Part shown: positions 8,084 to 32,000 of the stretch, one piece after another
Numbering within the stretch: the first letter of the stretch is position 1
How the letters are laid out: the number at the start of each line of letters is the position of its first letter
NCBI RefSeq assembly: GCF_000012805.1
Contig: NC_007484.1
Coordinates: 2,190,001 to 2,222,000, forward strand
Length of the DNA: 32,000 nucleotides
Direction: 5' to 3'
DNA from: Nitrosococcus oceani ATCC 19707
GTDB taxonomy: Bacteria > Pseudomonadota > Gammaproteobacteria > Nitrosococcales > Nitrosococcaceae
Notes under the pieces: model-generated
Told to the model about the DNA's origin: nothing
What the model saw: only the letters and a program-made list of their open reading frames with translations
The model's database searches: none
Made by a program: the position numbers and the translations under genes

Positions 8084-8134
8084 AATTACTATTTTTTTAA
8101 AACAGCTTCTAACGCTTAAATCAGTCATCTAAAA

Positions 8135-8833: not shown

Positions 8834-8862
8834 AGTGGGTTATCTTAGGCAAGTTTTTTCTG

Positions 8863-13987: not shown

Positions 13988-14124
13988 CGGTCTCCCTCCT
14001 CTAGGACCGCGCGCACCCGCACGGAAGTCATTACGGATATGGCGCAGAGGAAGGCAACAGGAAACAACCACCTGTCATTAGATCCAAAGAAAGGGGTTCT
14101 AACCTCGGTACCGTCGCCCTCCGC

Positions 14125-14300
14125 GACACCACAGGGCACTCTAGGCCGGTCTCCGGGCTTGCAAGTAGCAGAGGTCAAAATACCTGCGGGACTGATTGCC
14201 TTCCCACGAAAATCCGCAGTGGCTTAATAACCAGTCTCTTCTTGCCTACCGTTGCGGGGGCAGCGTCGGCTTTTGACCGACTTCCCGTTTAACCCCTTTA
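14125..14300 (-). promoter_or_regulatory. cobalamin (B12) riboswitch in the btuB leader
   Basis: The minus strand reads GGTTAAACGGGAAGTCGGTCAAAAGCCGACGCTGCCCCCGCAACGGTAGG...AAGCCACTGCGG...GGGAAGGC...AAGCCCGGAGACCGGCC. GCCACTG is the complement of 14217-14223. The B12 box AGCCCGGAGACCGGCC is the complement of 14144-14159. Edges are approximate. Confidence 0.9.
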
Positions 14301-14626
14301 ATTAAGAACGGGGTACCTGTAAGTGAGGGAGGGCAATCTAGGGAAATGAGTGAGCGTTGTCAACTTTACCTCTCCTGTATCAGGGGATTGGGATCGGGGC
14401 ACTTCAAAATAACGGTTGAAAAAGGCAGAGCGCTAGCAACAGAGAGAATAGTGTCGACAAATTGAACCAAGTAGATAATTCACAGAAATCGACCGGGGAA
14501 TTCTTTAATAGAAAGGCTCTTTGAACTCATGCTGTTCAAACCGTGGTGCTTAATATAAAGACAGGCTAATTTAGCTGTTGCCGCTTAACGATTTGAATTG
14601 CATTAAAATTCCCAGTTAAATTCCGG

Positions 14627-19062: not shown

Positions 19063-20350
19063 CGCCCACCATAACCGTGACCATCTTATCTAAATCGATC
19101 CGTTTCTGAAAAGCCTCCCGAATCTGGGTAGCCGTGACCGCCTCTACCTGGGAAATGAAGGTCTCCAGATAATTCCGCGGCAATTGATAGAAAGCAATCA
19201 TGGCAAGATATTGGACCTTCTCCCCATTGCTGTCGATTCGCAGGGGAAAACCGCCAGTAATATTTTGCTTTGCTAGCTGAAGTTCCTTCTCGCTGGGACC
19301 TGTGGCAATAAAATTTTGCAGGGTCTCGCGCAACACTTCTAATGCTTCCTTGGCCTGTTCATTCCGGGTTTGTAGCGACAGAACATAAGGCCCTCGGCGC
19401 CGCATGGGGCTAAAATAACTATAGGCGCTATAGGTCAGTCCTCGCTTCTCTCGAAGCTCCACGCTGATCCGGGAAACCAAACCACTGCCGCCTAAAACAT
19501 GGTTGCCCACATAAAGGGGAAAATAGTCAGGATCACCCCGGCGCACCCCTATCGTTCCCAGGATAATAGTCGTCTGACTAGAAGGATAATGAATGGTTTC
19601 TATTTCTGTCTTTTTGATTTTGGGGACAGGAGACAACGCTGGTGCTGGCTTTCCCGTTGGCAAATCGCCTACCACCTGCTTGGCTACCTGCTCGGCCTGG
19701 GGCCGCTCTAGCGCACCCACAATTGCCACTATCGCATTGCTAGCTACATAGTAGCGCCGGTGGAAGGCCAAGGCATCCTCCTGGGTTAAGCTAGCCAACC
19801 CTTCCTGGGTTCCTAGAGGCAGATGCCCATAGGGGTAGTCGCCATAAAGGCGGTGATAAAAAGCCCGGCTAGCAAGACTGCTCGGCGACTGCAACTGCCT
19901 TTGTAGAGCAGTTTCCATTCGCTTACGTACCCGCTCAAAAGCCGCTACCGGCATAGTAGGCTGCTCCAAAACCAAGGCCATGGTCTCCAATGCCGGCTGC
20001 AAAATTTCAGACTCGGTCAAGCTACGCAGGCTGACTACCGCCATATCCCGTTCGGCCTGGGTACCAAACTGGGCGCCCAAATTATCAAATCGCTTGGCGA
20101 TGGCATCGGCATCTAACTCACCCGCACCTTCCGGTAAAAGGGCGCTGCTCAGTTGGGCCAACCCAGGTTGGTTTTCATCCCGGGCCGCACCTGCGTCGAA
20201 GACTACGCGGACATCCACCATGGGCAATTCCTTGGCCTGGATAAAATAAACCCGGGCTCCGTTAGCCATCGTCCAATGCTGAATATCAGGCGCCGCTAAA
20301 CTTACAGCAGCAATACTCCAGAGCAGTAAAATTGCAAGACTACGAAACAT
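19046..20350 (-). CDS. M16 family peptidase, non-catalytic-type partner (no HxxEH)
   Basis: M16 fold pattern with signal peptide MFRSLAILLLWSIAAVSLA. A GGAGG SD lies 5 nt before the ATG at 20350. The position of the zinc motif reads GLAQLSSALLPEG. Confidence 0.85.
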
Positions 20351-21719
20351 GGCGACCTCCTTCCACGGGCTGAGTCGAAGGCGCTTTTTCTCCTGGCTCA
20401 ATAGGTAAAGGCACCAATTCCGCCCGGGTTAACCTGGCCTCCAACAAATATTTCTGGGCAACCGCCTGGACTTGTTCAGGGGTAATGGCGCGCACCTGAT
20501 CCACATAGGCATCCGCTAGCCGCCAGTCTAGCCCAACCGTTTCCAGCAACCCTAGCTGCATGGCCTGAAAAAACATGGAGTCCTGTTCAAAAACCTGATG
20601 GGCAACTACCTGGTTTTTGATTCGCTCCAGTTCCTCCTTGCTCACGAGTTCTTTTTGCAGGCGCTGAATCTGTGCCCAAATAGCCTCCTCCAACTCGGCA
20701 ATAGTCCGTCCCTGGGCCGGTACTCCAGCAATCACAAATTGGTCTTTGATGCGCCCATACAAATGGTAGCTGGCCCCTACGCTGGTAGCCACTTGGCTGC
20801 CCCGGATAAGTTCCCTGGAAAAGCGAGAACTACGCCCTCCATCTAAAATCCCGCCTAACACCTCCAGGGCATAGGCTTCCCAGTCTTCTTCCGCGTTCTT
20901 TATAACCGGCACCTTCCACCCTAACAGCAAATAAGGCAGCTCAGCCGGTGCCCGCACAAAAATCTCCCGCCGGCCAGTCTGGGAAATCTCCTCCTGGGGT
21001 TTGGGGGGAGTGATTTTCTCTGGTTTTAAGGAGCCAAAATATTTTTCAGCCAAAGCATGGACGGCCTCAGGGTCTACATCTCCCACGACCACCACAGTGG
21101 CATTGTTAGGGGCATACCACTTCTGATACCAGGCTTGCAAATCCTTGAGTTCATAGTGTTGAATATCGCTCATCCAACCAATCACGGGATGATGATAGGG
21201 GCCGCTGAGAAAAGCGGTAGCGTTGAAACGCTCGTAGGTCAAGGCATTAGGATTATCCTCAGTGCGCATGCGCCGCTCCTCCATCACCACCTGCTTTTCC
21301 TTCCGTAATTCTTCGGGAATGAGCACTAGGTTGCGCATGCGATCAGCTTCCAGCCGGAAACTGACCTCTACCTGGTCATTGGCCATCTGCTCAAAATACG
21401 CTGTGTAATCCCGGCCCGTAAAAGCATTTTCCTCACCCCCGTTAGCAGAAATAATCTGCGAAAATTGGTTTGGCTCCAAATTTTTAGTTCCCTTAAACAT
21501 CATATGCTCTAGCATATGGGAAATACCCGTAATCCCATTGTACTCATAGCTAGAGCCCACCTTGTACCACACTTGGGAAACCATCACCGGTGCCCGAGGA
21601 TCTTCCTTAACCAGGAGCTTTAGCCCGTTCTTCAGGGTAAATTCATGTACTTTGGCCATAACTGCTAGTGGCAACATCAGGGCCAAAAAGATTGTTAGCA
21701 AGCGTATGAGTGGCGTCAT
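20340..21719 (-). CDS. M16 family zinc metallopeptidase (pitrilysin/insulinase-like)
   Basis: Signal peptide, then GISHMLEHMMFKGT (HxxEH) and the downstream GGEENAFTGRDYTAY. Confidence 0.9.
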   Translation of the reverse strand: MTPLIRLLTIFLALMLPLAVMAKVHEFTLKNGLKLLVKEDPRAPVMVSQVWYKVGSSYEYNGITGISHMLEHMMFKGTKNLEPNQFSQIISANGGEENAFTGRDYTAYFEQMANDQVEVSFRLEADRMRNLVLIPEELRKEKQVVMEERRMRTEDNPNALTYERFNATAFLSGPYHHPVIGWMSDIQHYELKDLQAWYQKWYAPNNATVVVVGDVDPEAVHALAEKYFGSLKPEKITPPKPQEEISQTGRREIFVRAPAELPYLLLGWKVPVIKNAEEDWEAYALEVLGGILDGGRSSRFSRELIRGSQVATSVGASYHLYGRIKDQFVIAGVPAQGRTIAELEEAIWAQIQRLQKELVSKEELERIKNQVVAHQVFEQDSMFFQAMQLGLLETVGLDWRLADAYVDQVRAITPEQVQAVAQKYLLEARLTRAELVPLPIEPGEKAPSTQPVEGGRHVS

Positions 21720-21819
21720 TGTCTTCCTTCTTGGTTAACGCTATAGAAATTGGTTTTTAAAATCAGCAATAATGATAGGATACTTAATCGTAAGCATTAT
21801 CTAATGAGTCATAAAAGCC

Positions 21820-22908
21820 ATGGTAAGTTTCTTTAAGCGTAAGCGAAAGAGCCCAGAACAGAATTCAGAAGCGACTCTTCCTCCGGTAGCCGCCGAAGCT
21901 ACCAGAGAAGCCAGCTCAGAGACCGGAGCCGGGGAAAAACAATCTTTATTCAAGCGCCTACGTGACCGCCTTGGCCGCACCCGCGGTAATCTGACGGGTG
22001 GTATTGCTGACCTGATGCTAGGCAAAAAATCCATTGATGATGAGTTGTTGGAAGAGATTGAAACTCAACTGCTTATTGCAGACTTGGGAGTCGAAGCCAC
22101 TCAGGCCATTATTGAGGATCTCACCATTCGAACTTCCCGCGAGCAACTCCAAGATGCGGAGGCTTTGATGGAGGCCCTACGGGAGAATATGCAAGAATTA
22201 CTGACGCCTTGCAACCAACCGTTAATAATTCCAGCAGCTATTAAACCCTTTGTCATTCTCATGGTAGGCGTTAATGGAGTCGGTAAAACCACCACTATTG
22301 GCAAGCTAGCGAAAAAATTCCAGGCTGAGGGCCGCTCGGTAATGCTCGCTGCTGGCGATACCTTTCGTGCTGCAGCGGTGGAACAATTGCAAGTATGGGG
22401 TGAACGTAACCAAGTTCCGGTCATGGCCCAGCACAGCGGAGCTGATTCCGCCTCAGTAATTTTTGATGCCGTGCAATCGGCCCAGGTCCGGGGAATCGAT
22501 GTGCTAATTGCGGATACCGCAGGCCGGCTCCATACTCAAACTAATCTTATGGAAGAACTTAAAAAAGTGAAACGAGTTATGGGTAAAGTAAATCCCCACG
22601 CTCCCCATGAAATAATGCTGACCGTGGATGCTGGAACAGGTCAAAATGCACTAAATCAAGCTAGGCAATTCCATGAGGCCGTTGACCTTACCGGGATTAT
22701 CCTCACCAAGTTAGATGGTACTGCTAAAGGAGGGGTAATTTTTGCCATTGCTAAAAAAATGGGACTCCCGATCCGTTTTATCGGTGTCGGCGAGGGCATT
22801 GATGACCTTCGCCCTTTCAATGCCGAGGAATTTGTTAATGCCTTACTTACCCCCCTACCTCCAAGAGAAACCGAAGAACTTGAGAATTCATCAGGACAGC
22901 CGAGTTAA
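21820..22908 (+). CDS. ftsY: signal recognition particle-docking protein FtsY
   Basis: Short acidic A-region followed by an NG domain: ILMVGVNGVGKTTTIGKLA, DTAGRLH, LTKLDGTAKGG, FIGVGEGIDDLRPF. Confidence 0.95.
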   Translation: MVSFFKRKRKSPEQNSEATLPPVAAEATREASSETGAGEKQSLFKRLRDRLGRTRGNLTGGIADLMLGKKSIDDELLEEIETQLLIADLGVEATQAIIEDLTIRTSREQLQDAEALMEALRENMQELLTPCNQPLIIPAAIKPFVILMVGVNGVGKTTTIGKLAKKFQAEGRSVMLAAGDTFRAAAVEQLQVWGERNQVPVMAQHSGADSASVIFDAVQSAQVRGIDVLIADTAGRLHTQTNLMEELKKVKRVMGKVNPHAPHEIMLTVDAGTGQNALNQARQFHEAVDLTGIILTKLDGTAKGGVIFAIAKKMGLPIRFIGVGEGIDDLRPFNAEEFVNALLTPLPPRETEELENSSGQPS

Positions 22909-22995
22909 GGAATATCATTAACTAAGCAGCTATGCCTGTCTCGTTTATTCACGGATAGCTAGTAACACTTATCAGGCCACTGGCGGGGGAACCTT

Positions 22996-23040
22996 TCCCT
23001 AATATTAGCACTCTTATGATAAGAGTGCTAATATTAGGGA
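22996..23040. repeat. perfect palindrome (20-22 bp arms) in the ftsY-rpoH spacer
   Basis: TCCCTAATATTAGCACTCTT (22996-23015), centre atgat, then AAGAGTGCTAATATTAGGGA (23021-23040). The arms are exact reverse complements, and the centre can extend the pairing by 2 bp. Confidence 0.9.
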
Positions 23041-23064
23041 ACTTCTTTTATTTAAGAGGAATTT

Positions 23065-23928
23065 ATGGAACTGACTGTACGCAATGATAATGGGGCGTTA
23101 GTACCCGTAGCCGTTGGTAATCTCAATACCTACTGCCAAAATGCCCATAGCATCCCTGTGTTAAGTGCAGAGCAAGAACGATCCCTTGCCCTTCGGCTTA
23201 GGCAGCATAATGATCTGGAGGCAGCTCGGCAGTTGGTCCTCTCCCATCTTCGTTTCGTCATCCGGATTGCGCGGGGATATAATGGTTATGGGCTTCCTCT
23301 GGCAGATTTAATTCAAGAGGGCAATATTGGTCTTATGAAAGCGGTCAAACGCTTCGATCCAGAGCAAGGAGTGCGTTTGGTGTCTTTCGCTGTCCATTGG
23401 ATCCGGGCGGAAATCCATGAATTCATTCTTCGTAACTGGCGTATCGTCAAAGTCGCAACCACCAAAGCCCAGCGCAAGTTGTTCTTTAATCTGCGGAGCG
23501 CTAAAAAACGTTTAGGCTGGCTCAATAGAAAAGAAGTAGATGAAGTCGCCCAGGATCTGGGTGTCAGCCCCAAGCAAGTAATGGAAATGGAGGCTCGCCT
23601 GAGCAGCCAAGATGCGCCTTTTGATGGCTCTAACGCGGAGGAGAGCGAAAATGGCATCCCCGCGCCGATGGCTTACCTTGCAGATCCATCTGCTGATCCA
23701 GCCCAGAAAATGGAGCTGCTGGATCAGGAAAATTATTATGGCCAACGGTTACAACAGGCATTGGAAGTGCTAGATTTGCGCAGCCGCACTATCATTAACC
23801 GCCGTTGGCTTCAAGAAAACAAAAGCACCTTACACGAACTCGCAGCGGAATACCAAATTTCTGCGGAGCGCATTCGCCAATTGGAAAATAACGCCATAAA
23901 GAAGATGCGTTCCGTACTCGCTGACTAG
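23065..23928 (+). CDS. rpoH: RNA polymerase sigma-32 (heat-shock sigma factor)
   Basis: Collinear by eye with E. coli RpoH: [77 protein letters not shown] (RpoH box) and ...[17 protein letters not shown]. Confidence 0.95.
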
Positions 23929-24012
23929 CCGCTCCTCAAACTGAGAAGCGGCATATTACCTCATTGAAAAAGGGAAAACGGGCTTCAATTATCAGCGCTC
24001 CACCACCTGCCA

Positions 24013-24798
24013 CTACGGCTTTAACCCAGCTCGTCCAAGGAGGGCCTTGACGTAGTCCGCCGGAATCGCATAAGTAATTCCGCTGGGATGTTTAAGAACG
24101 TTTTCCTTACTACCTTTAACAAAAACTTTATTGACCACGCCCAGCACCTGTCCTGTATCCGGATCATAAACGGGACTGCCACTATTACCCGGATATGCTG
24201 TAGCATCTAGCTGAAATACTTTAAAAGGTTGCCGGCGTAGCTGCTGAATACGCTGAGGGTTAAGATCTTGGCTAGCTCGTCCTGCCGTGGCAATGGGGGT
24301 AATGGCTGAGACGATGCCACGGTGGGTCACCGGATAGAGTCCCAGCACGGGTCCAATCGGAAAGCCGGTAAAAGCAACCCCTTCTCCCTCACGGACTTGT
24401 GAGGGGTTTCCCAGTGAAAGAGAGGATAGAGAGCCCCCCCCTATCTTCAGGAGGGCAAGATCATGAACGGCATCCACAGCTACTTTCTCCGCTTGCCGTA
24501 CCTGCCCCTTAACACCGACAAAAACTGCAATATATTCGTTACGCTCTGAATTAAGCTCAGAAGGCAAAACATGGGCATTAGTCACCACATGCCGGCCATC
24601 AGCAACTACAAAGCCTGTTCCCCGATAGCGTGCTTGGACGCCCCGAATGGAGGCATAAGTACCCACCCCCACCACCGCCTGTTTAACGTGCTCGATGGTA
24701 TCCGCTAAATCCGCCAAGGCAGGAATTGCCGTGAAAAGCAGCAGGCTAATTTTTAATGAAAACCACCCTCCTTGCCACAATATTCGACACAAATTCAT
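24013..24798 (-). CDS. secreted trypsin-like (S1/S1C) serine protease without PDZ domain
   Basis: Signal peptide, then a catalytic triad context of VVTNAHV (His), HDLALLKI (Asp) and PGNSGSPVYD (Ser). Its ATG overlaps the upstream gene's stop as ATGA (24795-24798). Confidence 0.85.
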   Translation of the reverse strand: MNLCRILWQGGWFSLKISLLLFTAIPALADLADTIEHVKQAVVGVGTYASIRGVQARYRGTGFVVADGRHVVTNAHVLPSELNSERNEYIAVFVGVKGQVRQAEKVAVDAVHDLALLKIGGGSLSSLSLGNPSQVREGEGVAFTGFPIGPVLGLYPVTHRGIVSAITPIATAGRASQDLNPQRIQQLRRQPFKVFQLDATAYPGNSGSPVYDPDTGQVLGVVNKVFVKGSKENVLKHPSGITYAIPADYVKALLGRAGLKP

Positions 24799-26051
24799 CC
24801 GCTTTCTCTAAGATTACCTTTTAAATCCGGGTAATGGTGCCTACGTATTTCCTGGCGTAATGGCGTGTAGAACCAAGGTAACCACCAAGCAAGTAAAGCC
24901 AATACAGCATCAGTAATATCAGGGTATCGGCCTGCAATGTATTGCTGATTCCATTCCAAGGTGAACATCCCAACAAACACCCCGATTCCTCCCCAGACCA
25001 GTATCCTTCTGGGCCGTTGGGGGCGAAGATGAAGTACCAGTATACTAAGGGCAAAAAAAGGCCAAGCACCAATGAGCGTATCAACAATGCCAATCACGGT
25101 GCTAGTCAAGTGCCCCTTGAAAGGTATCCAGTTAAAATTAGAGATTAGCCACGTTGTCCCAACGCGTAGTTCGTCAATAATAACCGCCCCAAGAATGGCA
25201 ACGATACTGCTTACAATAGCACCCCTTGCTGGTAACTGCCGCAGCAAGGCAAATCCCACTACCCCTACTCCCGCACCTGCAAGGGCCTCAGCAGAGAGCG
25301 GGCGACCCACCACGGGTATTTTAAACAATAGCACCGCGCTAATGAATACCGCAAACCACCAAAACGCGGATTTATCGGATTTTAAGGCTGCGGCACCCAC
25401 CGTGCCCAGCGCCATGATGGTCAAAATATATACTACCATCTGGTTAAAATCGAGGGGGATTTGCTGTGTCAACGTATACCATAACGGCTTTAATTCCTGA
25501 CGCAGGCCAGAGATATCAAGCGACGGAACCCATGGACTGGTTTGAGAAAGCCCCCACAACCCTAACAAAAACATGCTTGCGCTGGCTAACGCTCCAGGCC
25601 GTATGTGGGCTTGACGCAATGAAAGTAGACACTCATAAATCCGGCCTTGGGGACGTACCGCAACGAAGAGCAAGCCGCCCGCAAGGGCTCCCGTAGTGTT
25701 AAGCGCTAAGTCTAGGAATGAAGATACTCGGCTGGGTAGGTAAACCTGTAAGGACTCAAGCAAAAAACTTAATACCGTTCCTCCCAAAAGAGCAGCAATA
25801 ATTTTGCCAATAGGGGAACGGGAAATAACGGCGCGAGCAAGCAAGAAACCTAACGGGATATAGACGACAATATTGGTAAAAATATCTGAATAGCTAACTT
25901 TCGATCCGTGCCCAAAAATAGGCAACCACCCCGATTCCAATGGGACTCGCCAATCATGCAACGGATAGAGGGTACCATAAGCCAGCAATCCCGCGTAGAT
26001 GATTACCGACAATAAGCGAAATGGTTTAGCCTGCCCTTTGGAATACATCAT
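24795..26051 (-). CDS. VanZ-like domain polytopic membrane protein
   Basis: The N-terminal VanZ-like pattern is YAGLLAYGTLYPLHDW..., SDIFTNIVVYIPLGFLLA and LLESLQVYLPSRVSSFLDLALNTTGALAGG, followed by many additional TM helices. The start at 26051 (MMYSKGQ) is preferred because a GGAGA SD lies 6 nt upstream. The ORF-track start at 26084 has no SD. Confidence 0.7.
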   Translation of the reverse strand: MMYSKGQAKPFRLLSVIIYAGLLAYGTLYPLHDWRVPLESGWLPIFGHGSKVSYSDIFTNIVVYIPLGFLLARAVISRSPIGKIIAALLGGTVLSFLLESLQVYLPSRVSSFLDLALNTTGALAGGLLFVAVRPQGRIYECLLSLRQAHIRPGALASASMFLLGLWGLSQTSPWVPSLDISGLRQELKPLWYTLTQQIPLDFNQMVVYILTIMALGTVGAAALKSDKSAFWWFAVFISAVLLFKIPVVGRPLSAEALAGAGVGVVGFALLRQLPARGAIVSSIVAILGAVIIDELRVGTTWLISNFNWIPFKGHLTSTVIGIVDTLIGAWPFFALSILVLHLRPQRPRRILVWGGIGVFVGMFTLEWNQQYIAGRYPDITDAVLALLAWWLPWFYTPLRQEIRRHHYPDLKGNLRESG

Positions 26052-26086
26052 GCATAATCTCCCGTTAGCGTGGAGATTATGCATGA
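26048..26086 (-). promoter_or_regulatory. perfect 15-bp stem / 9-nt loop hairpin covering the SD and start codon of the VanZ-like gene
   Basis: The mRNA sense reads UCAUGCAUAAUCUCC (26086-26072), loop ACGCUAACG, then GGAGAUUAUGCAUGA (26062-26048). The 3' arm contains the GGAGA SD and the AUG at 26051. A regulatory function is inferred, not shown. Confidence 0.5.
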
Positions 26087-26224
26087 GCGAAAGAAAAAAA
26101 TCTAATAACTCCCTTTATAATTCAATTACCTAAAAAGAAACAGTGATATTTATTACCTGCTAGAGGCCAAAACGGAATAATTTACCTCTCTCCTATTTTT
26201 ACTCTCTCCATGTTCCAACAAACG

Positions 26225-27141
26225 TTAATCATTAGTATATACGATGGTAAGTTTAGGCATGAGTGTGGGATCGGCCGTATAATCATTGCTGCGGAAACGT
26301 TGAAGATTACTATTACCACTCACAGACACTAGGCGCCAGCCGTGGTTGGCTTGGCCATTGCTCGTGGCTTGGATACCAGCAGCGATATCAATCTCAAGCC
26401 ACTGGGGATCCCAACCCACCCCCGCTTGGCTATCAGCAACGGCATTATAAATCGGCACCGCTGCCGCCCGCGCCACTTTCGGTCCACTCAACACCGCTGC
26501 GAGGCTCATTCCACGCTGTAATAGCCGATGAGCACGGTACACAAATTGGAAAGGGGACCCTTCACGCTCTACATGGGAAAATGTTGCTGTCGTAGGTATG
26601 AGTAGATGGTGGCGCAGCATCAGGACCATCAACTGGCATAATAAAACCCAGGTCATCTTGGGTGATCTGGCTAGGCAGGGAGGCCTGTTCCCATAAGCGC
26701 GTGGTGCCGCGCCATCGATAAACGTCATTACCGTTGTAATTGGCGTGACCGCCCCCATAAATGATGAGATCGCTTCGATTGGAGTCCCAGGCAAACGAGT
26801 TCCACGCACCGATGATCCTCGACGGAGTCGGGTTACTAAGCCCCCTAAGGGGGCGCAGATTAGGGGGCGTCCATACATCGGCAAAACGGTTAAGGTTAAC
26901 TTTAACCCAATCTCCTTCTGGCAACGCATCGAGAAGAGTTATCAGTCCGCTGAGATCAGGCGGAGTTCCAAGCGCGTTTCGCTGGGCGGTCGGAGCAGAT
27001 CTTTGCTTAGGCGTTAAGTCAGCTTTTGGCCTATCAGTAGCCCCGGTTTTGGAGGCTAATACTTCAACGGCTAACTGCAATACCAGCGAATTCCAACAAG
27101 AAGAAAGCCGCAGCAAGCAATAAAGAGCAGCGCCGAATTTT
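26225..27141 (-). pseudogene. decayed gene for a secreted protein (Kelch/beta-propeller-like N-terminal piece plus DNRLRE-like C-terminal domain)
   Basis: The coding signal is split over three frames. First, a signal-peptide-like KIRRCSLLLAAAFFLLEFAGIAVSR, ending in a stop, with no start codon (about 27141-27067). Second, ORF 26562-27116 (...IIYGGGHANYNGNDVYRWRGTTRLWE...PPSTHTYDSNIF). Third, the sensible tail of ORF 26225-26929 from about 26600 (GVGWDPQWLEIDIAAGIQATSNGQANHGWRLVSVSGNSNLQRFRSNDYTADPTLMPKLTIVY). Confidence 0.6.
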
Positions 27142-27328
27142 GTGGCTAAAATAGCATTTTATGGAGTATGAGTCCTTTCCAGGCTATAAAAAACGATTTA
27201 GCAGGCTATAATTATTGGTTAACTTATATTGATATATTTATAGAATAATTCCTATTCTATCCAGAGCTACAAAGGCTGCATCAAAGCAAAAGGGAAAGTT
27301 CCGGTATGAGGCCAGGATGGCGGTAACG

Positions 27329-29551
27329 TTAAGCAGTTTTCTCACATAAACCTGCCGCCGGTATCTGAAGGGTGGGCAGGTGTTTTGAGCCTTCCACAAA
27401 AGCTTCCCAGTACCGGCAAATTACTTCCAGTTTATCGAGCACTATGCACGCCGCATCAACTTGTTGCGCCAGCCGCTGCGCCCGGTTTCCCCCAATGGAA
27501 GGATCAAAGCAAACCCGGGATACTAGCCGCGATCCCGGTGCAATTCTAAGCGCGCCAAGCCAAATCCCTTTCTCACACCGAATTCGAACCGGCTGCCCAA
27601 TATGACAGCATTTGGCTGCTAAGCGCTGCTCCGCCTCTGAACTCCCGGCGGGAAGCCAGGGGGATAAATCAGCATTCAACCAATGATAGGCCATAACGGC
27701 CTCCTCGTAGGTTAACAAGGCCGAAGCTCGGCGTATCAGGAAGGTAAAAATGGTAGGAACACTATCCCATGAATTGCTCTCTTCTCCATTAACCCGACGA
27801 TAGACAGAAGGTGGCAGTGGTTCGATATATGAGCATCCGTCCATGCGGGTGTGCAACATTTCAGCGAAGTCGTGGAAAATGCTGTGCCGCCTTCGCGAGT
27901 CCGCGGCGAAAAAAGCCTCCATTTCCCATAAAGCTGCCTGCCATCGCAGGAGCAATCCGTAGTTAGGTGAGGTGCCCAAATGCAGTACTTGTTGGGACCA
28001 CCGCCATTCCTCCGGCACCTCCCAGCGGCTCACATAGCCACTGAGACCCTGGGGAAAGGGACTGTCTACATCAATACTGCTAGCTACCGATGAGGGAATC
28101 AGGAGCGCGCCAGCAAATGGCGGGCCAGTAAAGAATTTCGATCCGGTCGCAATCACGTAGAAACCCTGACGCAGATAGGTAGCCAGATTGGCGCGGCTCA
28201 ACCGCATTTGGGCCGCATCCACAATGACCGCAACTCGCTCGCCATAAACTGCCTGCAATTTTGCAATGCAGTCGAGACTAGGCGCCCCTAAGCCTGTTTT
28301 GGAGGAGTCTAATAAATGAATGAGCACCGAACTGCCTGCTTCAATGCCCGAACTCACCCATTCATGCAGACAGCCCTCCACTTCGTTGCTCGACAAGAGC
28401 CGTCCCGTCTCATCGCGCAATTCCAACTCCTGCACTTGAATCTGATCGCAGTGTAGGCCCTCTACCGCCATACCAGGCTGAACCGCGCCACCCAGTGGAC
28501 TGATATGGTCGAAATGCTGACCGGCAGCTGCATAACGGCTACCACTACCAATCTCCCGTGGGGCGATAAGAATATTCAATAAGGGCCGTTTGGCTACTGC
28601 GCTGGCACAGTGCACCGCAAACAACTCTGCATCCGTACCCGAGGGTGTCAACAAAATTTTAGCGCCAGGCACTTGCTCAAGCCGCAATACTTGAGCCAAG
28701 CGTCGCCTTATTCGTGCCATCTCCTCAGCAAATCCGTTTACCAACTGACCGGCTAAAGCCAGCGGGAACAAGCAACGGCGCTGCGCTTCAGCGCTCGCAA
28801 AACCCGGTTCAGAAATCGATGATGCCGTACAGGTTGAAAATGTAATGGCCCAAGGGCGAGGGCTGGGGCTGCAACCATATTTATTAAGTCCCGAATCCGG
28901 GTGGACCAAAAGCCGTTGGTCGCCCCCGAGGGTTAAGAGACGCTCAGTGGGTTGGGCAATCGCTAAGCTCTCTGCGGCGCGATTAATAGCAATTTCATTC
29001 TTTTCATTAACAGGGGAAAGAAAATCGTTGAAACTATGAATAAAACGGAGAAAGGGCACCAAGCTAGTCACAATAACTTGTGGCAAGGTAAACTGCTTGC
29101 GCTGAGATAACAATATTTCGAAAGCCTCCCTCAGCCAAGGGGGATCGGCATCCAAAACCCGGTTTTGGTCTTCCGAGTGCATGCTTTCAAGAACAAGCAG
29201 ACTGGAATGCAACGCAAGCAAGGCCGCCGCGACTGCTTCATTGGGTGTATGCGCCGCTCGCGCCCAGGCGAGTTGCTCGACCCCGTGCCGCAAATGGAAA
29301 ATTGCCAGCGCGGGATGCGCGAGCACCGAGGGATCAATCCGCAAGGTTCCATCCTGCTGAATTTGCAAGGATTGCTCCTGAGCGGACACCCGGACTGAAA
29401 AACCATGCAGCAATATATTAATAACAGGAGCCTGGAGTGTGGATTCCAAGACACGGTATTGTTCTGGTGTCAAGGATGTTTCTAATGTCGGCTCCACACT
29501 GCGAGCCAAGCGGCCATAAGTTCGAGAAACTTCTTCAGCATCCATCGTCAT
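27329..29551 (-). CDS. fold-type-I (class-V-like) PLP-dependent enzyme with a roughly 230-290-aa N-terminal region of unknown function
   Basis: An AAGGAG SD lies upstream of the ATG at 29551. Class-V aminotransferase-like pattern: LLTPSGTDAELFAV, VIVDAAQM (D445, nt 28217-28219) and IATGSKFFTGPPFAGALL with candidate Schiff-base Lys K472 (nt 28136-28138). I did not recognise the N-terminal region. Confidence 0.6.
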   Translation of the reverse strand: MTMDAEEVSRTYGRLARSVEPTLETSLTPEQYRVLESTLQAPVINILLHGFSVRVSAQEQSLQIQQDGTLRIDPSVLAHPALAIFHLRHGVEQLAWARAAHTPNEAVAAALLALHSSLLVLESMHSEDQNRVLDADPPWLREAFEILLSQRKQFTLPQVIVTSLVPFLRFIHSFNDFLSPVNEKNEIAINRAAESLAIAQPTERLLTLGGDQRLLVHPDSGLNKYGCSPSPRPWAITFSTCTASSISEPGFASAEAQRRCLFPLALAGQLVNGFAEEMARIRRRLAQVLRLEQVPGAKILLTPSGTDAELFAVHCASAVAKRPLLNILIAPREIGSGSRYAAAGQHFDHISPLGGAVQPGMAVEGLHCDQIQVQELELRDETGRLLSSNEVEGCLHEWVSSGIEAGSSVLIHLLDSSKTGLGAPSLDCIAKLQAVYGERVAVIVDAAQMRLSRANLATYLRQGFYVIATGSKFFTGPPFAGALLIPSSVASSIDVDSPFPQGLSGYVSRWEVPEEWRWSQQVLHLGTSPNYGLLLRWQAALWEMEAFFAADSRRRHSIFHDFAEMLHTRMDGCSYIEPLPPSVYRRVNGEESNSWDSVPTIFTFLIRRASALLTYEEAVMAYHWLNADLSPWLPAGSSEAEQRLAAKCCHIGQPVRIRCEKGIWLGALRIAPGSRLVSRVCFDPSIGGNRAQRLAQQVDAACIVLDKLEVICRYWEAFVEGSKHLPTLQIPAAGLCEKTA

Positions 29552-29605
29552 TTAGAAGTACTCCTTAAAAAGCCCTATCTTCCATTATTTGACAATATCT
29601 TAGCT

Positions 29606-30733
29606 CTACATATATCTATGTTTGCGCAGCATCTCTCTCAATGGACCTCGATTCATGCCTGCATCAACTACCAGCTGGGGCAAGCGTACCCCGCCGATGA
29701 TATTGACTTCGAGCATCACCGGCCCCCGATCGGTCAACGCAATATCCCACGCCTGCATTTTTAGGCCTGGCAATGACGCCGTGCCCTCCCGGCAAAGTTC
29801 CAGCGTCTGCTCCCAGTTGGGCAAAGTAATCCCTACCAGCTTCTCCCCCGTATCCGGGTGCTCGGAAACATTGCGGCGTTGTAACCCCAAACCCGTAAAC
29901 ATCTGCCCCACGACTCCCGTCTCAGGGTCGATAGGCCCTACTAAATTTCCAGGCTCCCAATAATTATCAGCCATTGCGTTGCCCACAGCGACTTTCCAGA
30001 GAGTGCTAATTATGATAGGCGCCGGGTCCAGCAGGGTCACTACGCGGACACTGCAAATGCGGTTACCACATAGTTCCAATAGCATGGGATGTGGCTTCAA
30101 AAGCTCCTGAAAGAGCCACCCTTGTTTCACCAGGGGCTCAAGAGCAGCCACAAAATCCGCTATAGCCATACGCTTCCCATTAACCAGCACCAGTTCATCG
30201 CTTTCATGCTCAAGGCGCTCGATGGCGTATACATTTTTACCCCACATTCCAAGCACAGGCTTGGCAACCAAAGGGAATGGCGCCTGTTCACGAAGAAACT
30301 GCCCGAGCTGCGCCCCGTTTCGCACTATAGGCAAGGCGCCATGGCGGCGTATCGGATGAAAGAACCCGTACAATTTGGGCGACGGCAATTGCAAGGCTTC
30401 AAATAGGCTGCATGCCACCAGCTTGTCGTTCGCAATGGCATGCCATGACCAGGAATCGAACAGCTCCCATAGATCGTACTGCATGTGCCGACCAAGGAAA
30501 GTCCGCTTCTGCTCGGGGCTGAAACGCCGATCATCAAATAAACAATACTGATAGTATTCATCAGGAGCCAAGCGGCCCTTGCCCCAGCGCAGGGCAATCA
30601 TCTCGGAAGCCTGACCCAGTAGTGACTTCCCAGAGGCCTTTCGCGCCGCCCTGCCATGTTCCCACAGTACCCCCGGCAACGCGGCAAAATCTTTGCAAAA
30701 CCGGCTAACGCGCTGGCGCAGTCTCCAAAACAT
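29606..30733 (-). CDS. sugar-transfer-associated ATP-grasp family ligase (ATPgrasp_ST-like)
   Basis: Family-typical layout: N-terminal ...GKGRLAPDEYYQYCLFDD...; NDKLVACSLFEALQLPSPK; PLVAKPVLGMWGKNVYAI; ICSVRVVTLL; ADNYWEPGNLVGPIDPETGVV; SEHPDTGEKLVGITLPNWEQ; QAWDIALTDRGPVMLEVN. Confidence 0.8.
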   Translation of the reverse strand: MFWRLRQRVSRFCKDFAALPGVLWEHGRAARKASGKSLLGQASEMIALRWGKGRLAPDEYYQYCLFDDRRFSPEQKRTFLGRHMQYDLWELFDSWSWHAIANDKLVACSLFEALQLPSPKLYGFFHPIRRHGALPIVRNGAQLGQFLREQAPFPLVAKPVLGMWGKNVYAIERLEHESDELVLVNGKRMAIADFVAALEPLVKQGWLFQELLKPHPMLLELCGNRICSVRVVTLLDPAPIIISTLWKVAVGNAMADNYWEPGNLVGPIDPETGVVGQMFTGLGLQRRNVSEHPDTGEKLVGITLPNWEQTLELCREGTASLPGLKMQAWDIALTDRGPVMLEVNIIGGVRLPQLVVDAGMNRGPLREMLRKHRYM

Positions 30734-30739
30734 AACGGC

Positions 30740-31987
30740 TTAATTGCTACCGTGACTGGCGACCTTAGAGGCGGCAGGCGCCATCGCCAGAATGGACGTT
30801 GGATCTCTCAGGCCAATCATAGTAGGGCGATAGCGGTCCCGAAGCTGCGCAACAGCCCAATGAAACTTGTATCCCGTTTGGGAAATCAATAGGCGAAGGG
30901 AGATAGGCATTCGCAGGGGCAACCCCAAATTATTGCCCCGCCACACGATCCAATGATACAAAGTAGCCTGCATTCGGCGCAGGCGGTGGCGCATCGATTG
31001 CCGGTTGCGCGATTCAAGTTCTTCCGAAAATGCCATGAGAGCCTGGTGCGATCCTGCCGAAAGCATCGCCCCATTATCCAAGGTTACCCAAAAAGGTTGT
31101 GTAATTGCCTTTTTCTCCTGTCCGAATGCTTCCCGCTCAATGCCAGCCGATTCGGCCAACCGCCGGGGAATCGGCCTATCATAAGTATTTCCAAGGCGCC
31201 AAGGGTCCATTTCAGGCGATTGGGAAATCCGCAGGATCTCGTCGTGGCGGGGCATCGTCAGGACCGGCAACGGCGCGTGGATGAACCCCAATCGCAATCG
31301 AAATTCTCCTAATGAGGCGCCGGAAGGATCCTTGCTCTTGAATTGGGCGCTATCCTCGATGGCTTGTGGTTCGAAATCCCAAATGGTATCTCCCCGAAAT
31401 CCAGTGAAAAATACTGTGCCGGGGAGGTGTTCGGCCAATACCGACATTACTACATCATCACCGCCATTGCCCGTAGCCAGAAACTCAGCTTCGGGAATAC
31501 CTTTATCTTCAAAATAAAGGGAGCGGTCAAATTCCATGACGTTGAAACCAAGTTGCCGCCCGATCTTACCGCCATCATCACAAGCATCCTGGGGATTACC
31601 CACATCGCCGTTAAACTCCATCCGGGCACTGCAAAAAGTTACCGCTTCAGTACCACCACATTTGCGCGCGATGACAGCGCACGCCGGCGAATCATATCCA
31701 GTGGAGACAGTGGCAAGAGGCTTATAGGTGATAGAACGGCGGGAATCACTGGCATTGCCCAGCACCTGTTGCATCGTCCCTTCAAGATAGCCTACGTAAT
31801 CCTCATAGGTGCCAAAATGAGGAAGGGCGGGTGGAGAATCCGTATATATATTAAGGTCGCAGTCAATCCGGAGTCGACGGTAGTACTGAAGCTGAATCCG
31901 CCGACCTTGCGCGGTAGGAACCCACTTTCGGGCACGGTGATAACCTTTTACTACCGACAAAAACTCTAGTTCATACTCCACATGCAT
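30740..31987 (-). CDS. asparagine-synthase-like PP-loop (adenine nucleotide alpha-hydrolase) protein, possibly 5'-partial
   Basis: A PP-loop-like STGYDS sits at residues 95-100 (nt 31688-31705) in the context PLATVSTGYDSPACAVIARKCGG..VTF. It is followed by DDGGKIGRQLGFNVMEFD and FFTGFRGDTIW, which parallel the AsnB C-domain layout. The frame stays open from 31988 to the window edge, so the true start may lie beyond 32000. The stop is 6 nt before the ATP-grasp ATG. Confidence 0.55.
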   Translation of the reverse strand: MHVEYELEFLSVVKGYHRARKWVPTAQGRRIQLQYYRRLRIDCDLNIYTDSPPALPHFGTYEDYVGYLEGTMQQVLGNASDSRRSITYKPLATVSTGYDSPACAVIARKCGGTEAVTFCSARMEFNGDVGNPQDACDDGGKIGRQLGFNVMEFDRSLYFEDKGIPEAEFLATGNGGDDVVMSVLAEHLPGTVFFTGFRGDTIWDFEPQAIEDSAQFKSKDPSGASLGEFRLRLGFIHAPLPVLTMPRHDEILRISQSPEMDPWRLGNTYDRPIPRRLAESAGIEREAFGQEKKAITQPFWVTLDNGAMLSAGSHQALMAFSEELESRNRQSMRHRLRRMQATLYHWIVWRGNNLGLPLRMPISLRLLISQTGYKFHWAVAQLRDRYRPTMIGLRDPTSILAMAPAASKVASHGSN

Positions 31988-32000
31988 TGGATCAATCTCA

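What the first reader, a model, noticed from the sequence alone, without database searches (positions are those of the whole stretch)
27329..32000. AsnB-like PP-loop enzyme / ATPgrasp_ST ligase / PLP-fold fusion protein: candidate uncharacterised amidoligase cassette running off the window
Three co-directional minus-strand genes are packed like an operon. There is a 6-nt gap between 30740 and 30733, and a 54-nt gap with an AAGGAG SD before 29551. The combination is an adenylating PP-loop enzyme, an ATP-grasp carboxylate-amine ligase and a PLP enzyme. That is the chemistry expected for building or attaching an amino-acid-derived amide, either a small metabolite or peptide, or aminoacyl decoration of a glycan (the ATP-grasp family is named for its association with sugar transferases). 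I do not recognise this trio as a named pathway. It is flanked by an AT-rich spacer (27117-27328) and a decayed secreted-protein gene, which suggests accessory DNA. The substrate and the rest of the locus beyond 32000 are unknown.
Basis: partly seen in the sequence, partly recalled or inferred. Interest (0 to 1): 0.75.

Follow-up and report, generated by a model that had tools for sequence, protein, structure and literature searches.

The report
Uncharacterised polysaccharide amide-forming gene module
Three tightly packed Nitrosococcus oceani genes (a glutaminase-dead asparagine-synthetase-like enzyme, a sugar-associated ATP-grasp ligase and a member of a large unnamed vitamin-B6 enzyme family) belong to a conserved, uncharacterised module of exopolysaccharide gene clusters that most likely puts amide-linked groups on a surface sugar polymer.

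Summary
Three co-directional minus-strand genes of Nitrosococcus oceani (Noc_1941/1940/1939) are separated by 6 nt and 54 nt, with an AAGGAG before the third.

All three family calls hold:
- g1 has an asparagine-synthetase B / beta-lactam-synthetase fold. Its PP-loop is intact (S-T-G-Y-D-S) but it has no N-terminal Cys, so it is glutaminase-dead.
- g2 is a clear PF14397 ATPgrasp_ST member.
- g3 is a fold-type-I, class-V-like PLP enzyme with an extra N-terminal helical domain. Its family has about 2,500 50%-identity clusters and no Pfam or NCBIfam model.

The trio is not the conserved unit. Past the window lie a Wzx flippase and three more AsnB-like genes. The closest relative outside Nitrosococcus carries Wzx, two g1 paralogues, the ATP-grasp and g3 inside a Wzx/Wzy exopolysaccharide operon. 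There g3 is followed directly by an exosortase-A-associated O-glycosylation ligase.

Elsewhere g3 is paired with, or fused to, an MfnA-like PLP decarboxylase. Sister N. oceani strains carry a 3.3-kb deletion that destroys g1 and the flippase.

Best reading: a glycan amidation or aminoacylation module. Substrates are unknown and no member is characterised. Interest is moderate: a new variant of a known kind.

The parts
30740..32000 (-). g1 (Noc_1941), C-terminal 415 of 529 codons. It is an asparagine-synthetase-B-superfamily enzyme with a degenerate, Cys-less N-terminal glutaminase-like domain and a PP-loop adenylating domain. The PP-loop S-T-G-Y-D-S is residues 209-214 of the full protein. The gene starts outside the window, at about 32329.
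   Evidence: ORF and sequence. Identity of the window to L001. P0121 is the 100% identical Noc_1941. AF2 model with pLDDT 91. Foldseek top hits are beta-lactam synthetase, carbapenam synthetase, ASNS and AsnB. Invariant S209, G211, Y212, D213, S214. No Pfam or NCBIfam hit.
29606..30733 (-). g2 (Noc_1940), 375 aa. It is an ATP-grasp carboxylate-amine ligase of Pfam family ATPgrasp_ST.
   Evidence: PF14397 at E 3e-33, 115.7 bits against a cut-off of 31.4. Invariant K158, D330, E342 and N344 (the ATP-grasp K-P...G and E-x-N motifs). About 90 close homologues, all PF14397.
27329..29551 (-). g3 (Noc_1939), 740 aa. Residues 1 to about 195 form a helical domain of unknown function. Residues from about 200 to 720 form a divergent fold-type-I (class-V-like) PLP domain. 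The predicted Schiff-base Lys is K472; D445 and Q448 are the PLP-binding pair.
   Evidence: AF2 pLDDT 89, pTM 0.92. Foldseek hits to Egt2/EgtE, PvdN, CsdA, SufS and PhnW, E about 1e-9, target TM about 0.6. Invariant residues. hhalign register against SufS. No Pfam, NCBIfam or PDB sequence hit.
29561..29566 (-). AAGGAG Shine-Dalgarno sequence, 9 nt upstream of the g3 ATG.
   Evidence: Read directly from the sequence.
27117..27328 (.). AT-rich intergenic spacer downstream of g3 (GC 0.377). It marks the end of the co-directional block.
   Evidence: The consensus scan found no convincing terminator here.
26225..27116 (-). Two overlapping ORFs in different frames (184 aa and 234 aa), probably a frameshifted gene. 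They mark the edge of the glycan locus, beyond which the genes are housekeeping.
   Evidence: Gene calls differ between strains. Only a sub-threshold CBM96 hit (E 0.0045). No similarity to the Kelch or CBM96 neighbours of related loci.

Best explanation
The three genes are the promoter-distal part of an uncharacterised module that belongs to Wzx/Wzy-type exopolysaccharide loci, in relatives of the exosortase-A/PEP-CTERM type. The module consists of a Wzx flippase, two or three glutaminase-dead AsnB-like adenylating enzymes, an ATPgrasp_ST ligase and a novel PLP enzyme.

Proposed mechanism:
1. On the cytoplasmic face, carboxylate groups of the lipid-linked or nucleotide-linked sugar repeat unit (a uronic acid or similar acidic sugar) are activated. 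The AsnB-like enzymes activate them as acyl-adenylates. The ATP-grasp enzyme activates them as acyl-phosphates.
2. The activated carboxylates are captured by ammonia or by an amine or amino acid, giving amide-linked substituents.
3. The PLP enzyme g3 makes or tailors that amine or amino-acid donor. In many other lineages it does this together with an adjacent or fused MfnA-like decarboxylase.
4. Wzx flips the decorated unit.

Shown here: gene order, predicted folds, intact catalytic motifs, absence of the glutaminase Cys, synteny and gene fusions.
Inferred: that the acceptor is a glycan carboxylate, the identity of the amine, the reaction type of g3, and the order of steps.
For: Folds and motifs:
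- g1 has the AsnB / beta-lactam-synthetase fold, an invariant PP-loop and no Cys at position 2.
- g2 is a PF14397 member with the ATP-grasp Lys and E-x-N motifs.
- g3 has a class-V-like PLP fold. K472, D445, Q448, K418 and four Arg residues are about 100% conserved in 253 family representatives.

Context in N. oceani:
- Upstream of g1 lie a MOP/Wzx flippase, paralogues of 500 and 522 aa, and a divergent 581-aa AsnB-like gene that starts MIFGML, also without the Cys.
- Further upstream is a DprE1/DprE2/UbiA/HAD-type polyprenyl-sugar gene set and a sulfotransferase.

Related loci:
- Closest relative, L095: GT4 - Wzx (65% identity) - g1a (48% to par_500) - g1b (61% to g1) - ATP-grasp (66%) - g3 (62%) - TIGR03097 exosortase-A-associated O-glycosylation ligase (535 bits against a cut-off of 188) - Kelch. 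The g3 and ligase genes overlap.
- L096: GT4 - Wzx - g3 - Wzy_C - Kelch.
- L040 (Vicinamibacterales): g1 paralogue, Wzx, ATP-grasp, g3, GT2.
- L092: ATP-grasp, g3 and a g1 paralogue packed tightly — ATP-grasp and g3 overlap, and the paralogue starts at g3's last base.
- L033: g3 and the ATP-grasp beside PelG.
- g1-family genes elsewhere always sit among flippases, glycosyltransferases, Wzy_C and UDP-GlcNAc 2-epimerase genes.

g2-g3 linkage:
- Five of the six closest non-Nitrosococcus g3 homologues have the same longest-contig length as a close g2 homologue. One of these was verified directly.

Amine-supply link:
- A PF00282 decarboxylase lies immediately upstream of g3 in 11 of 80 genome loci.
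- It is fused N-terminally to g3 in all 8 long family members tested, namely the seven 1,187-1,247-aa proteins plus P0106, and also in P0442, an 869-aa protein holding only part of the g3 core.
- That decarboxylase is MfnA-like, TIGR03812 E 3e-71.

Other:
- N. oceani has the EpsH/PEP-CTERM system at Noc_1971-1998, a few tens of genes from Noc_1939-1941 (PMC1569441).
- Precedent: in the Campylobacter jejuni HS:2 capsule, PLP enzymes make serinol phosphate or ethanolamine phosphate, and an ATP-grasp domain (Cj1438C) amidates glucuronate (PMC11800379).
Against: - No member of any of the three families has been characterised, so no substrate is known.
- In N. oceani itself no Wzy, GT4 or Kelch homologue lies next to the module. 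The glycan it would act on is therefore unidentified.
- Some decarboxylase-g3-ATP-grasp modules (L007, L019) have no recognisable polysaccharide genes nearby.
- L096 keeps g3 without any amidoligase. g3 does not strictly need g1 or g2 and may have another role, for example making a sugar precursor.
- Only 7 of 80 species-level g3 loci have a g2-clade ATP-grasp, and only 3 of 80 have a g1-family gene.
- g2 is not in the same Pfam family as the characterised Cj1438C, which is TupA-like.
Confidence: 0.55

Rival explanations
1. The genes form a soluble small-molecule pathway, making a dipeptide amide, an osmolyte or another amino-acid-derived metabolite. The ATP-grasp enzyme would join two amino-acid-derived units, the AsnB-like enzyme would amidate a carboxylate, and the PLP enzyme or enzymes would supply a decarboxylated or transaminated building block. 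This is analogous to N-acetylglutaminylglutamine amide synthesis (AsnO plus the Ngg ATP-grasp).
For: - Decarboxylase-g3-ATP-grasp occurs as a compact unit beside unrelated genes (an AraC regulator, riboflavin genes, an AAA ATPase) in L007 and L019.
- UniRef and JGI label g2 homologues 'alpha-L-glutamate ligase' or 'RimK-type'. The weak NCBIfam hits are to RimK-like ligases.
- An AsnB plus ATP-grasp pairing is a known small-molecule theme. This comes from my own knowledge of the NAGGN pathway; the TIGR03104 name appears.
Against: - Neither AsnB-like protein is a TIGR03104 member. The best score is 21 bits against a cut-off of 570, and that is for the 581-aa gene only.
- All four AsnB-like proteins lack the glutaminase Cys.
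- Synteny with Wzx, GT4, Wzy/TIGR03097, GT2 and PelG spans at least four lineages — Nitrosococcus, the unnamed L095/L096 relatives, Vicinamibacterales and Nitrospirales.
- No exporter or regulator typical of metabolite clusters was seen.
Confidence: 0.2
2. The genes form a sulfur-insertion system. g3 would act as a cysteine-desulfurase or C-S-lyase-like enzyme passing sulfur to a carboxylate adenylated by the PP-loop enzyme, giving a thiocarboxylate, thioamide or thio-sugar.
For: - The top structural neighbours include the Egt2/EgtE C-S lyases and the CsdA/SufS desulfurases.
- JGI names two homologues 'selenocysteine lyase/cysteine desulfurase'.
- The N. oceani protein has C649-H650-I-G-Q-P, which resembles the SufS H-H-C-A-x-P catalytic loop (my recollection of SufS), and a second conserved Cys, C227.
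- PP-loop-type proteins sit next to g3 in several lineages: the g1 family, and a 'TGGVDS' protein in Gemmatimonadales.
Against: - C649 is present in only 82% and C227 in 87% of 253 family representatives. C649 is replaced by Phe or Tyr in some, whereas the PLP residues are about 100% conserved. A catalytic persulfide Cys should be invariant.
- No sulfur-carrier (SufE/CsdE/TusA/ThiS-like) gene was seen nearby.
- g1 is AsnB-like, not ThiI/MnmA/TtcA/LarE-like.
- The recurrent fusion partner is an amino-acid decarboxylase, which fits amine chemistry better.
Confidence: 0.07
3. In N. oceani the block is a decaying remnant of a once complete EPS cluster and is functionally inert, whatever its ancestral role.
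For: - No Wzy, GT4 or Kelch homologues are adjacent, unlike in L095 and L096.
- The downstream gene is probably frameshifted.
- Strains AFC27, C-27 and others carry a 3,273-bp deletion that fuses par_500 to g1 out of frame and removes Wzx.
- A transposase (Y1_Tnp) lies upstream in one strain.
Against: - g1 (in this strain), g2 and g3 are full-length with all catalytic motifs intact.
- g2 and g3 are identical across N. oceani strains. They are kept full-length in N. watsonii (88% and 84% identity) and N. halophilus (77% and 73%).
- The ribosome-binding site and tight spacing are preserved.
Confidence: 0.1

Closest known systems
Campylobacter jejuni HS:2 capsule glucuronamide pathway (Cj1435-Cj1438; Raushel laboratory)
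   Same: Within a polysaccharide locus, PLP-dependent enzymes make a small amine donor. An ATP-grasp amidoligase then joins it to the C6 carboxylate of a uronic acid in the growing glycan (PMC11800379). This is the best functional precedent for pairing g2 with a PLP enzyme.
   Different: - Cj1438C is a TupA-like ATP-grasp fused to a GT2. g2 is a stand-alone ATPgrasp_ST protein with no TupA hit even at E<=1.
- g3 is not related in sequence to ordinary aminotransferase or decarboxylase families.
- AsnB-like enzymes are not named among the enzymes that paper lists for the pathway (Cj1432, Cj1434, Cj1435, Cj1437, Cj1438).
- No substrate is known here.
Asparagine synthetase B superfamily members with inactive glutaminase domains: beta-lactam synthetase (1JGT/1MBZ) and carbapenam synthetase (1Q15)
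   Same: The best structural matches to g1 are these two enzymes (E 1e-10 to 1e-7, alignments of about 500 columns over both domains). Like them, g1 keeps the PP-loop adenylation site and lacks the N-terminal Cys nucleophile.
   Different: - Sequence identity is only 11-15%.
- g1 does not reach any Pfam or NCBIfam Asn_synthase model.
- g1 occurs as two to three tandem paralogues in polysaccharide loci, not in beta-lactam clusters.
- An intermolecular amidation of a sugar carboxylate is proposed here, not ring closure.
Class-V fold-type-I PLP enzymes (SufS/CsdA cysteine desulfurases, Egt2/EgtE C-S lyases, PvdN, PhnW)
   Same: g3 has the same fold. The S-G-T, D-A-A-Q and S-K motifs lie in the same register as SufS GTTEG, D200-x-x-Q203 and K226.
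   Different: - Sequence identity is 10-16%, and neither PF00266 nor a PDB sequence match is found.
- g3 has an extra N-terminal helical domain of about 195 aa and a long invariant coil segment (GGDxRL...LNxYGCSPxPRPWAxTFS).
- The candidate catalytic Cys is not invariant.
- g3 is recurrently fused to a group II decarboxylase.
XrtA/PEP-CTERM (exosortase A) exopolysaccharide loci (Haft et al. 2006)
   Same: In the nearest relative, the module lies directly beside a TIGR03097 exosortase-A-associated O-glycosylation ligase. That locus also has an XrtA-type-like AsnB, a polysaccharide deacetylase and an Acetyltransf_6 (PF13480) gene. N. oceani has this system at Noc_1971-1998 (PMC1569441).
   Different: - The g1, g2 and g3 families were not found among the described markers of that system. 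The paper was searched by term only (no 'asparagine synthase', 'decarboxylase' or 'amidotransferase'), and no paper combining exosortase, PEP-CTERM, ATP-grasp and exopolysaccharide was found.
- In N. oceani the module is separated from the EpsH locus by a few tens of genes.

Membership tests
Asparagine synthetase B superfamily (g1) | Two-domain architecture: an N-terminal Ntn-type domain and a C-terminal PP-loop synthetase domain. | tested here: met
   The AF2 model has pLDDT 91. The Foldseek top 23 hits are all beta-lactam synthetase, carbapenam synthetase, ASNS, TsnB9 or AsnB, with alignments of about 500 columns.
Asparagine synthetase B superfamily (g1) | PP-loop ATP pyrophosphatase motif SGGxDS. 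| tested here: met
   The variant S209-T-G211-Y212-D213-S214 is present. S, G, Y, D and S are invariant in 30 homologues.
Asparagine synthetase B, glutamine-hydrolysing (g1) | N-terminal Cys nucleophile (Cys2 before Met removal) for glutamine hydrolysis. | tested here: not met
   The full-length protein starts MKFRMQM. The family consensus has no conserved Cys at the N-terminus. The same holds for the paralogues (MSFRFC, MHFKYQ) and the 581-aa gene (MIFGML).
Pfam PF00733 Asn_synthase / NCBIfam asn_synth_AEB (g1) | A score above the curated cut-off. | tested here: not met
   There is no hit at E<=0.1 in Pfam or at E<=0.01 in NCBIfam.
Pfam PF14397 ATPgrasp_ST (g2) | A score above the gathering cut-off across the domain. 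| tested here: met
   115.7 bits against a cut-off of 31.4, covering profile positions 18-269 of 278. All close homologues carry PF14397.
ATP-grasp superfamily (g2) | The ATP-binding Lys and the Mg-binding acidic/E-x-N residues are present. | tested here: met
   K158 (AKPV...G..G), D330 and E342-V-N344 are invariant in 30 homologues. The roles are assigned by analogy to the superfamily, which is an inference.
TupA-like ATP-grasp (PF14305; includes the characterised amidoligase Cj1438C) | A Pfam match to the TupA-like model. | tested here: not met
   Only PF14397 was reported at E<=1. That Cj1438C is TupA-like comes from PMC11800379.
Fold-type-I PLP-dependent enzymes, class V-like (g3) | The fold, plus a Schiff-base Lys after the seventh strand, an Asp contacting the pyridine N, and a Gln or His contacting O3'. 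| tested here: met
   Foldseek gives 876 hits at E<=0.001, all fold-type-I, with Egt2, PvdN, CsdA and SufS at the top. K472 is present in 253/253, D445 in 252/253 and Q448 in 253/253 representatives.
Pfam PF00266 Aminotran_5 / cysteine desulfurase (g3) | A model match and an invariant catalytic Cys in the C-terminal loop. | tested here: not met
   There is no Pfam or NCBIfam hit at E<=1. C649 is conserved in only 204 of 249 representatives and is replaced by Phe or Tyr in some.
PLP binding by g3 | The purified protein carries PLP (absorbance near 420 nm, reducible internal aldimine). | not testable with these tools
   This needs protein expression and spectroscopy.
XrtA/PEP-CTERM exopolysaccharide locus | Adjacency to system-specific markers (EpsH/XrtA, the TIGR03097 ligase, the TIGR03108 amidotransferase). 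| tested here: inconclusive
   The feature is met in relative L095: TIGR03097 at 535 bits against a cut-off of 188, directly after g3, while the TIGR03108-like AsnB scores 291 bits, below its cut-off. In N. oceani no such gene lies within the window or 20 kb upstream. The EpsH locus is at Noc_1971-1998 (PMC1569441).
NAGGN 'trio' (AsnO/Ngg) dipeptide pathway | A TIGR03104 amidotransferase and an Ngg-type GNAT/ATP-grasp enzyme. | tested here: not met
   The only TIGR03104 signal is 21 bits (cut-off 570) for the 581-aa neighbour. There is none for g1. g2 has no GNAT domain.

The most novel reading that the evidence does not exclude
g3 would found a large, unnamed family of PLP enzymes: about 2,500 50%-identity clusters, in at least 401 GTDB species, with no Pfam or NCBIfam model. 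Together with an MfnA-like decarboxylase (often fused to it) and an ATPgrasp_ST ligase, it would carry out a so far undescribed reaction sequence. That sequence would build an amino-acid-derived amine and attach it to an exosortase-type exopolysaccharide or another envelope glycan. In this reading the glutaminase-dead AsnB paralogues form a new class of sugar-carboxylate amidating enzymes.
Probability: 0.35. Interest if true: 0.7.

Novelty: new variant of a known kind. Interest (0 to 1): 0.5.

Why it matters
Amide-linked amines and amino acids on uronic acids change the charge, antigenicity and phage or host recognition of bacterial surface polysaccharides. The enzymes that install them are known for very few systems.

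This locus links three uncharacterised enzyme families, one of them a PLP family of about 2,500 sequence clusters with no database model. It ties them into a recurring module of Wzx/Wzy exopolysaccharide clusters, found in environmentally important nitrifiers (Nitrosococcus, Nitrospirales) and in soil phyla.

The work yields concrete, testable hypotheses:
- The decarboxylase fusion points to amine chemistry.
- The loss of the glutaminase Cys points to an external nitrogen donor.

A natural experiment is also available: N. oceani strains with and without g1 and Wzx.

Tried and rejected
- **PDB sequence searches.** Searches with each protein and with the g3 profile gave nothing significant. Only structure comparison gave answers.
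- **Chance motif match.** The g3 profile matched class I fructose-bisphosphate aldolase weakly (E 0.47) over the GGDxRL...LNxYGCSPRPRPWAITFS segment. I treat this as chance, because that segment is an extended coil in a PLP fold.
- **Candidate g3 homologues that failed.** A 736-aa Pfam-less neighbour in L087 is not a g3 homologue. A 712-aa one in L090 also is not.
- **Downstream decayed gene.** I tried to link it to the CBM96/Kelch genes that flank the module in L040 and L095. No similarity was found. The CBM96 Pfam hit is below threshold.
- **Metagenome scan.** I replaced it with individual contig look-ups.
- **Literature.** Searches for ATPgrasp_ST, 'sugar-transfer associated ATP-grasp', Noc_1939-1943 and exosortase plus ATP-grasp returned nothing. 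The Iyer et al. 2009 amidoligase paper and the original Cj1438 amidoligase paper are not held.
- **Cysteine-desulfurase reading of g3.** I considered it and ranked it low because the candidate Cys residues are not invariant.
- **Promoter, terminator and Rfam scans of the region.** Nothing exceeded chance.

Full report
**Source and observation**

The window is Nitrosococcus oceani. The three proteins are identical to Noc_1941, Noc_1940 and Noc_1939 of ATCC 19707 and to copies in other N. oceani assemblies. Window 19606-32000 is 100% identical to locus L001, from assembly GCA_007990675.1.

Three minus-strand ORFs lie at 30740..31987+, 29606..30733 and 27329..29551. The sequence shows the following:
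- The gap between g1 and g2 is 6 nt.
- The gap between g2 and g3 is 54 nt.
- An AAGGAG lies 9 nt before the g3 ATG.
- The spacer after g3 is AT-rich: GC 0.377 against 0.493 for the window.

One correction is needed. The ATG at 31987 is internal. g1 is 529 aa and begins 329 nt beyond the window edge.

**g1**

g1 has no Pfam or NCBIfam hit, even at full length. An AlphaFold2 model built on 30 homologues is confident, with pLDDT 91. Its best PDB matches cover both domains: beta-lactam synthetase, carbapenam synthetase, human ASNS, TsnB9 and E. coli AsnB (E 1e-10 to 1e-6).

The PP-loop is present as S209-T-G-Y-D-S214 and is invariant in the family. The protein starts MKFRMQM and the family has no N-terminal Cys. 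The glutaminase function is therefore lost, as in the beta-lactam and carbapenam synthetases.

**g2**

g2 is an unambiguous member of PF14397 ATPgrasp_ST: 115.7 bits against a cut-off of 31.4. The ATP-grasp Lys (K158) and the D330 and E342-x-N344 residues are invariant. It is not in the TupA-like family that contains the only characterised sugar-carboxylate amidoligase, C. jejuni Cj1438C (PMC11800379).

**g3**

g3 has no Pfam, NCBIfam or PDB sequence hit. Its model is confident, with pLDDT 89 and pTM 0.92.

Residues from about 200 to 720 match fold-type-I, class-V-like PLP enzymes at 10-16% identity and target TM about 0.6. The matches include Egt2/EgtE C-S lyases, PvdN, CsdA, SufS and PhnW. 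Residues 1 to about 195 form an additional helical domain.

hhalign places S304-G-T, D445-A-A-Q448 and S471-K472 in register with the GTTEG, D200/Q203 and K226 residues of SufS.

Conservation across 253 family representatives:
- K472, K418, D445, Q448, R213, R450, R536 and R669 are conserved in 99.6-100%.
- C227 is conserved in 87% and C649 in 82%.

The incomplete conservation of the two Cys residues argues against a desulfurase-type mechanism.

An exhaustive profile search found 2,528 50%-identity cluster representatives at E<=1e-3 and 1,404 at E<=1e-30. At least 401 hits encoding a g3 relative were found in the species-representative GTDB genome collection. The family comes in three forms:
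- about 700-760 aa, like g3;
- about 510-560 aa, without the N-terminal domain;
- about 1,190-1,250 aa.

All eight long proteins tested, seven of 1,187-1,247 aa and P0106, carry an N-terminal PF00282 group II decarboxylase. So does P0442, an 869-aa protein holding only part of the g3 core.

**The locus beyond the window**

Upstream of g1, ATCC 19707-type strains carry the following:
- a MOP/Wzx flippase of 491 aa;
- two g1 paralogues of 500 and 522 aa, 30% and 37% identical to g1;
- a divergent 581-aa AsnB-like gene on the opposite strand, with an SAGLDS PP-loop and the start MIFGML, also lacking the Cys.

Further upstream lie a DprE1/DprE2/HAD/UbiA-type set, an LPG_synthase_TM gene and a sulfotransferase.

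On the other side, the window holds housekeeping genes: VanZ, a trypsin-like protease, a sigma factor, FtsY, M16 peptidases and others. The probable frameshifted gene at 26225-27116 therefore marks the edge of the locus.

**Co-occurrence**

Among 80 species-level g3 loci:
- A g2-clade ATP-grasp lies next to g3 in 7. They span Gammaproteobacteria, Nitrospirales, Burkholderiales, Vicinamibacterales and others.
- A g1-family gene lies next to g3 in 3.
- An MfnA-like PF00282 decarboxylase lies immediately upstream of g3 in 11. TIGR03812 gives E 3e-71 for this decarboxylase.

Within the clade closest to N. oceani the g2-g3 linkage is much tighter. Five of the six nearest non-Nitrosococcus g3 homologues have the same longest-contig length as a near g2 homologue.

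The nearest relative, L095, has one tightly packed, co-directional run of genes:

GT4 - Wzx (65% identity) - g1a (48% to par_500) - g1b (61% to g1) - ATP-grasp (66%) - g3 (62%) - TIGR03097 exosortase-A-associated O-glycosylation ligase (535 bits, cut-off 188) - Kelch protein

That locus also carries a methyltransferase, a polysaccharide deacetylase, a glutamine-dependent AsnB resembling the XrtA-system amidotransferase, and an Acetyltransf_6 (PF13480) gene.

Other informative loci:
- L096 has GT4 - Wzx - g3 - Wzy_C - Kelch and no amidoligase.
- L040 has a g1 paralogue, Wzx, the ATP-grasp, g3 and a GT2.
- L092 has the ATP-grasp, g3 and a g1 paralogue packed tightly: the ATP-grasp and g3 genes overlap, and the paralogue starts at g3's last base.
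- L033 places g3 and the ATP-grasp beside PelG.
- g1-family genes elsewhere always sit in polysaccharide clusters, twice beside a MurF-like ligase.

N. oceani itself has the EpsH/PEP-CTERM system at Noc_1971-1998 (PMC1569441). That is close to the module but not contiguous with it. No Wzy, GT4 or Kelch homologue is adjacent in N. oceani.

**Strain polymorphism**

AFC27, C-27 and three other assemblies carry a 3,273-bp deletion, L001 positions 6118-9390. It has 7 bp of junction overlap. It joins the first 337 codons of par_500 to the last ~200 codons of g1 out of frame and removes Wzx. g2 and g3 remain intact. g2 and g3 are also kept in N. watsonii (88% and 84% identity) and N. halophilus (77% and 73%). 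A g1 orthologue (78%) was seen only in N. halophilus.

**Interpretation**

The best-supported reading is a glycan-decoration module of Wzx/Wzy exopolysaccharide clusters, of the exosortase-A type in relatives. In this reading, carboxylates are activated as acyl-adenylates by the Cys-less AsnB-like enzymes and as acyl-phosphates by the ATP-grasp enzyme. They are then converted to amides. g3 supplies or tailors the nitrogen donor. The repeated gene fusion and adjacency to an amino-acid decarboxylase point to amine chemistry.

The folds, motifs, synteny and fusions are shown here. The acceptor, the donor, the reaction type of g3 and the order of steps are inferred.

The closest characterised analogue is the C. 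jejuni glucuronamide pathway (PMC11800379). None of the three proteins belongs to the families of that pathway.

Rival readings:
- a soluble dipeptide or amine metabolite pathway, confidence about 0.2;
- sulfur insertion, about 0.07;
- an inert remnant, about 0.1.

**Novelty**

No member of the three families has a described function in the libraries and papers searched. g3 represents a large family without any model.

The kind of system is known: ATP-dependent amidoligases and PLP enzymes in polysaccharide loci. I therefore rate this as a new variant of a known kind, of moderate interest. It is a good target for enzymology, but it does not break a paradigm.

Noticed in passing
L001 6118-9390 versus L002/L003/L004/L006 (window-equivalent about 31344 to beyond 32000): Several N. 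oceani strains (AFC27, C-27 and others) carry a 3,273-bp deletion between two AsnB-like paralogues. It removes the Wzx flippase and leaves an out-of-frame par_500/g1 chimera, called as 320/337 aa plus 185 aa. The window strain has the intact arrangement.
   Followed up: yes
window 14130-14333 (-) and 12059-14071 (-): A cobalamin riboswitch (Rfam RF00174, 102.9 bits) lies directly upstream of a TonB-dependent receptor gene (Plug plus beta-barrel). This is probably a BtuB-type B12 uptake gene.
   Followed up: partly
window 26225-27116 (-): Two overlapping ORFs in different frames (184 aa and 234 aa) are called differently in each strain, which suggests a frameshifted gene. The only family hit is a sub-threshold CBM96 match. 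They show no similarity to the Kelch or CBM96 genes that flank the module in relatives.
   Followed up: partly
P0106, P0117, P0348, P0366, P0371, P0389, P0398, P0403, P0442; loci L007, L010, L019, L021-L023, L026, L027, L034, L036, L060: Members of the g3 family are repeatedly fused to, or immediately preceded by, a group II (PF00282, MfnA-like) PLP decarboxylase. The fusions are two-PLP-domain proteins of about 1,200 aa. N. oceani has no such neighbour.
   Followed up: yes
L008 7236-8396 and L087 13400-14962: A MurF-like Mur ligase paralogue sits directly beside g1-family genes in two unrelated polysaccharide loci. This hints that some of these loci build peptide-like side chains on sugars.
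   Followed up: no
L011, L012, L017, L020, L024 (for example L020 6504-7610 -): In four Gemmatimonadales loci and one Pedosphaera (Verrucomicrobiota) locus, L024, g3 is adjacent to a ~360-aa protein with a PP-loop-like 'FFTGGVDS' motif and no Pfam or NCBIfam hit. In the Gemmatimonadales loci it is divergently transcribed and g3 is followed by a ~950-aa secreted protein.
   Followed up: no
L093 3316-7868 (upstream of the locus in N. oceani): A gene set of FAD_binding_4 (DprE1-like), short-chain dehydrogenase (DprE2-like), HAD phosphatase and UbiA prenyltransferase resembles the decaprenyl-phospho-arabinose pathway. An LPG_synthase_TM gene and a sulfotransferase accompany it. About 2 kb next to it has no called gene, and one strain has a Y1 transposase there.
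   Followed up: no
g3 residues 86-92 (window about 29296-29276, minus strand): The extra N-terminal domain of g3 carries a conserved H-x-R-H-x-x-E motif. R88 and E92 are conserved in 94-98% of family members that have this domain. It could be a second functional site. Its role is unknown.
   Followed up: no
L090 7764-10179: Two divergently transcribed ATPgrasp_ST paralogues (37-40% identical to g2) occur with no g3 nearby, next to split aromatic amino-acid ammonia-lyase ORFs (PF00221, called as 157 and 329 aa). The g2 clade is therefore not always tied to g3.
   Followed up: partly
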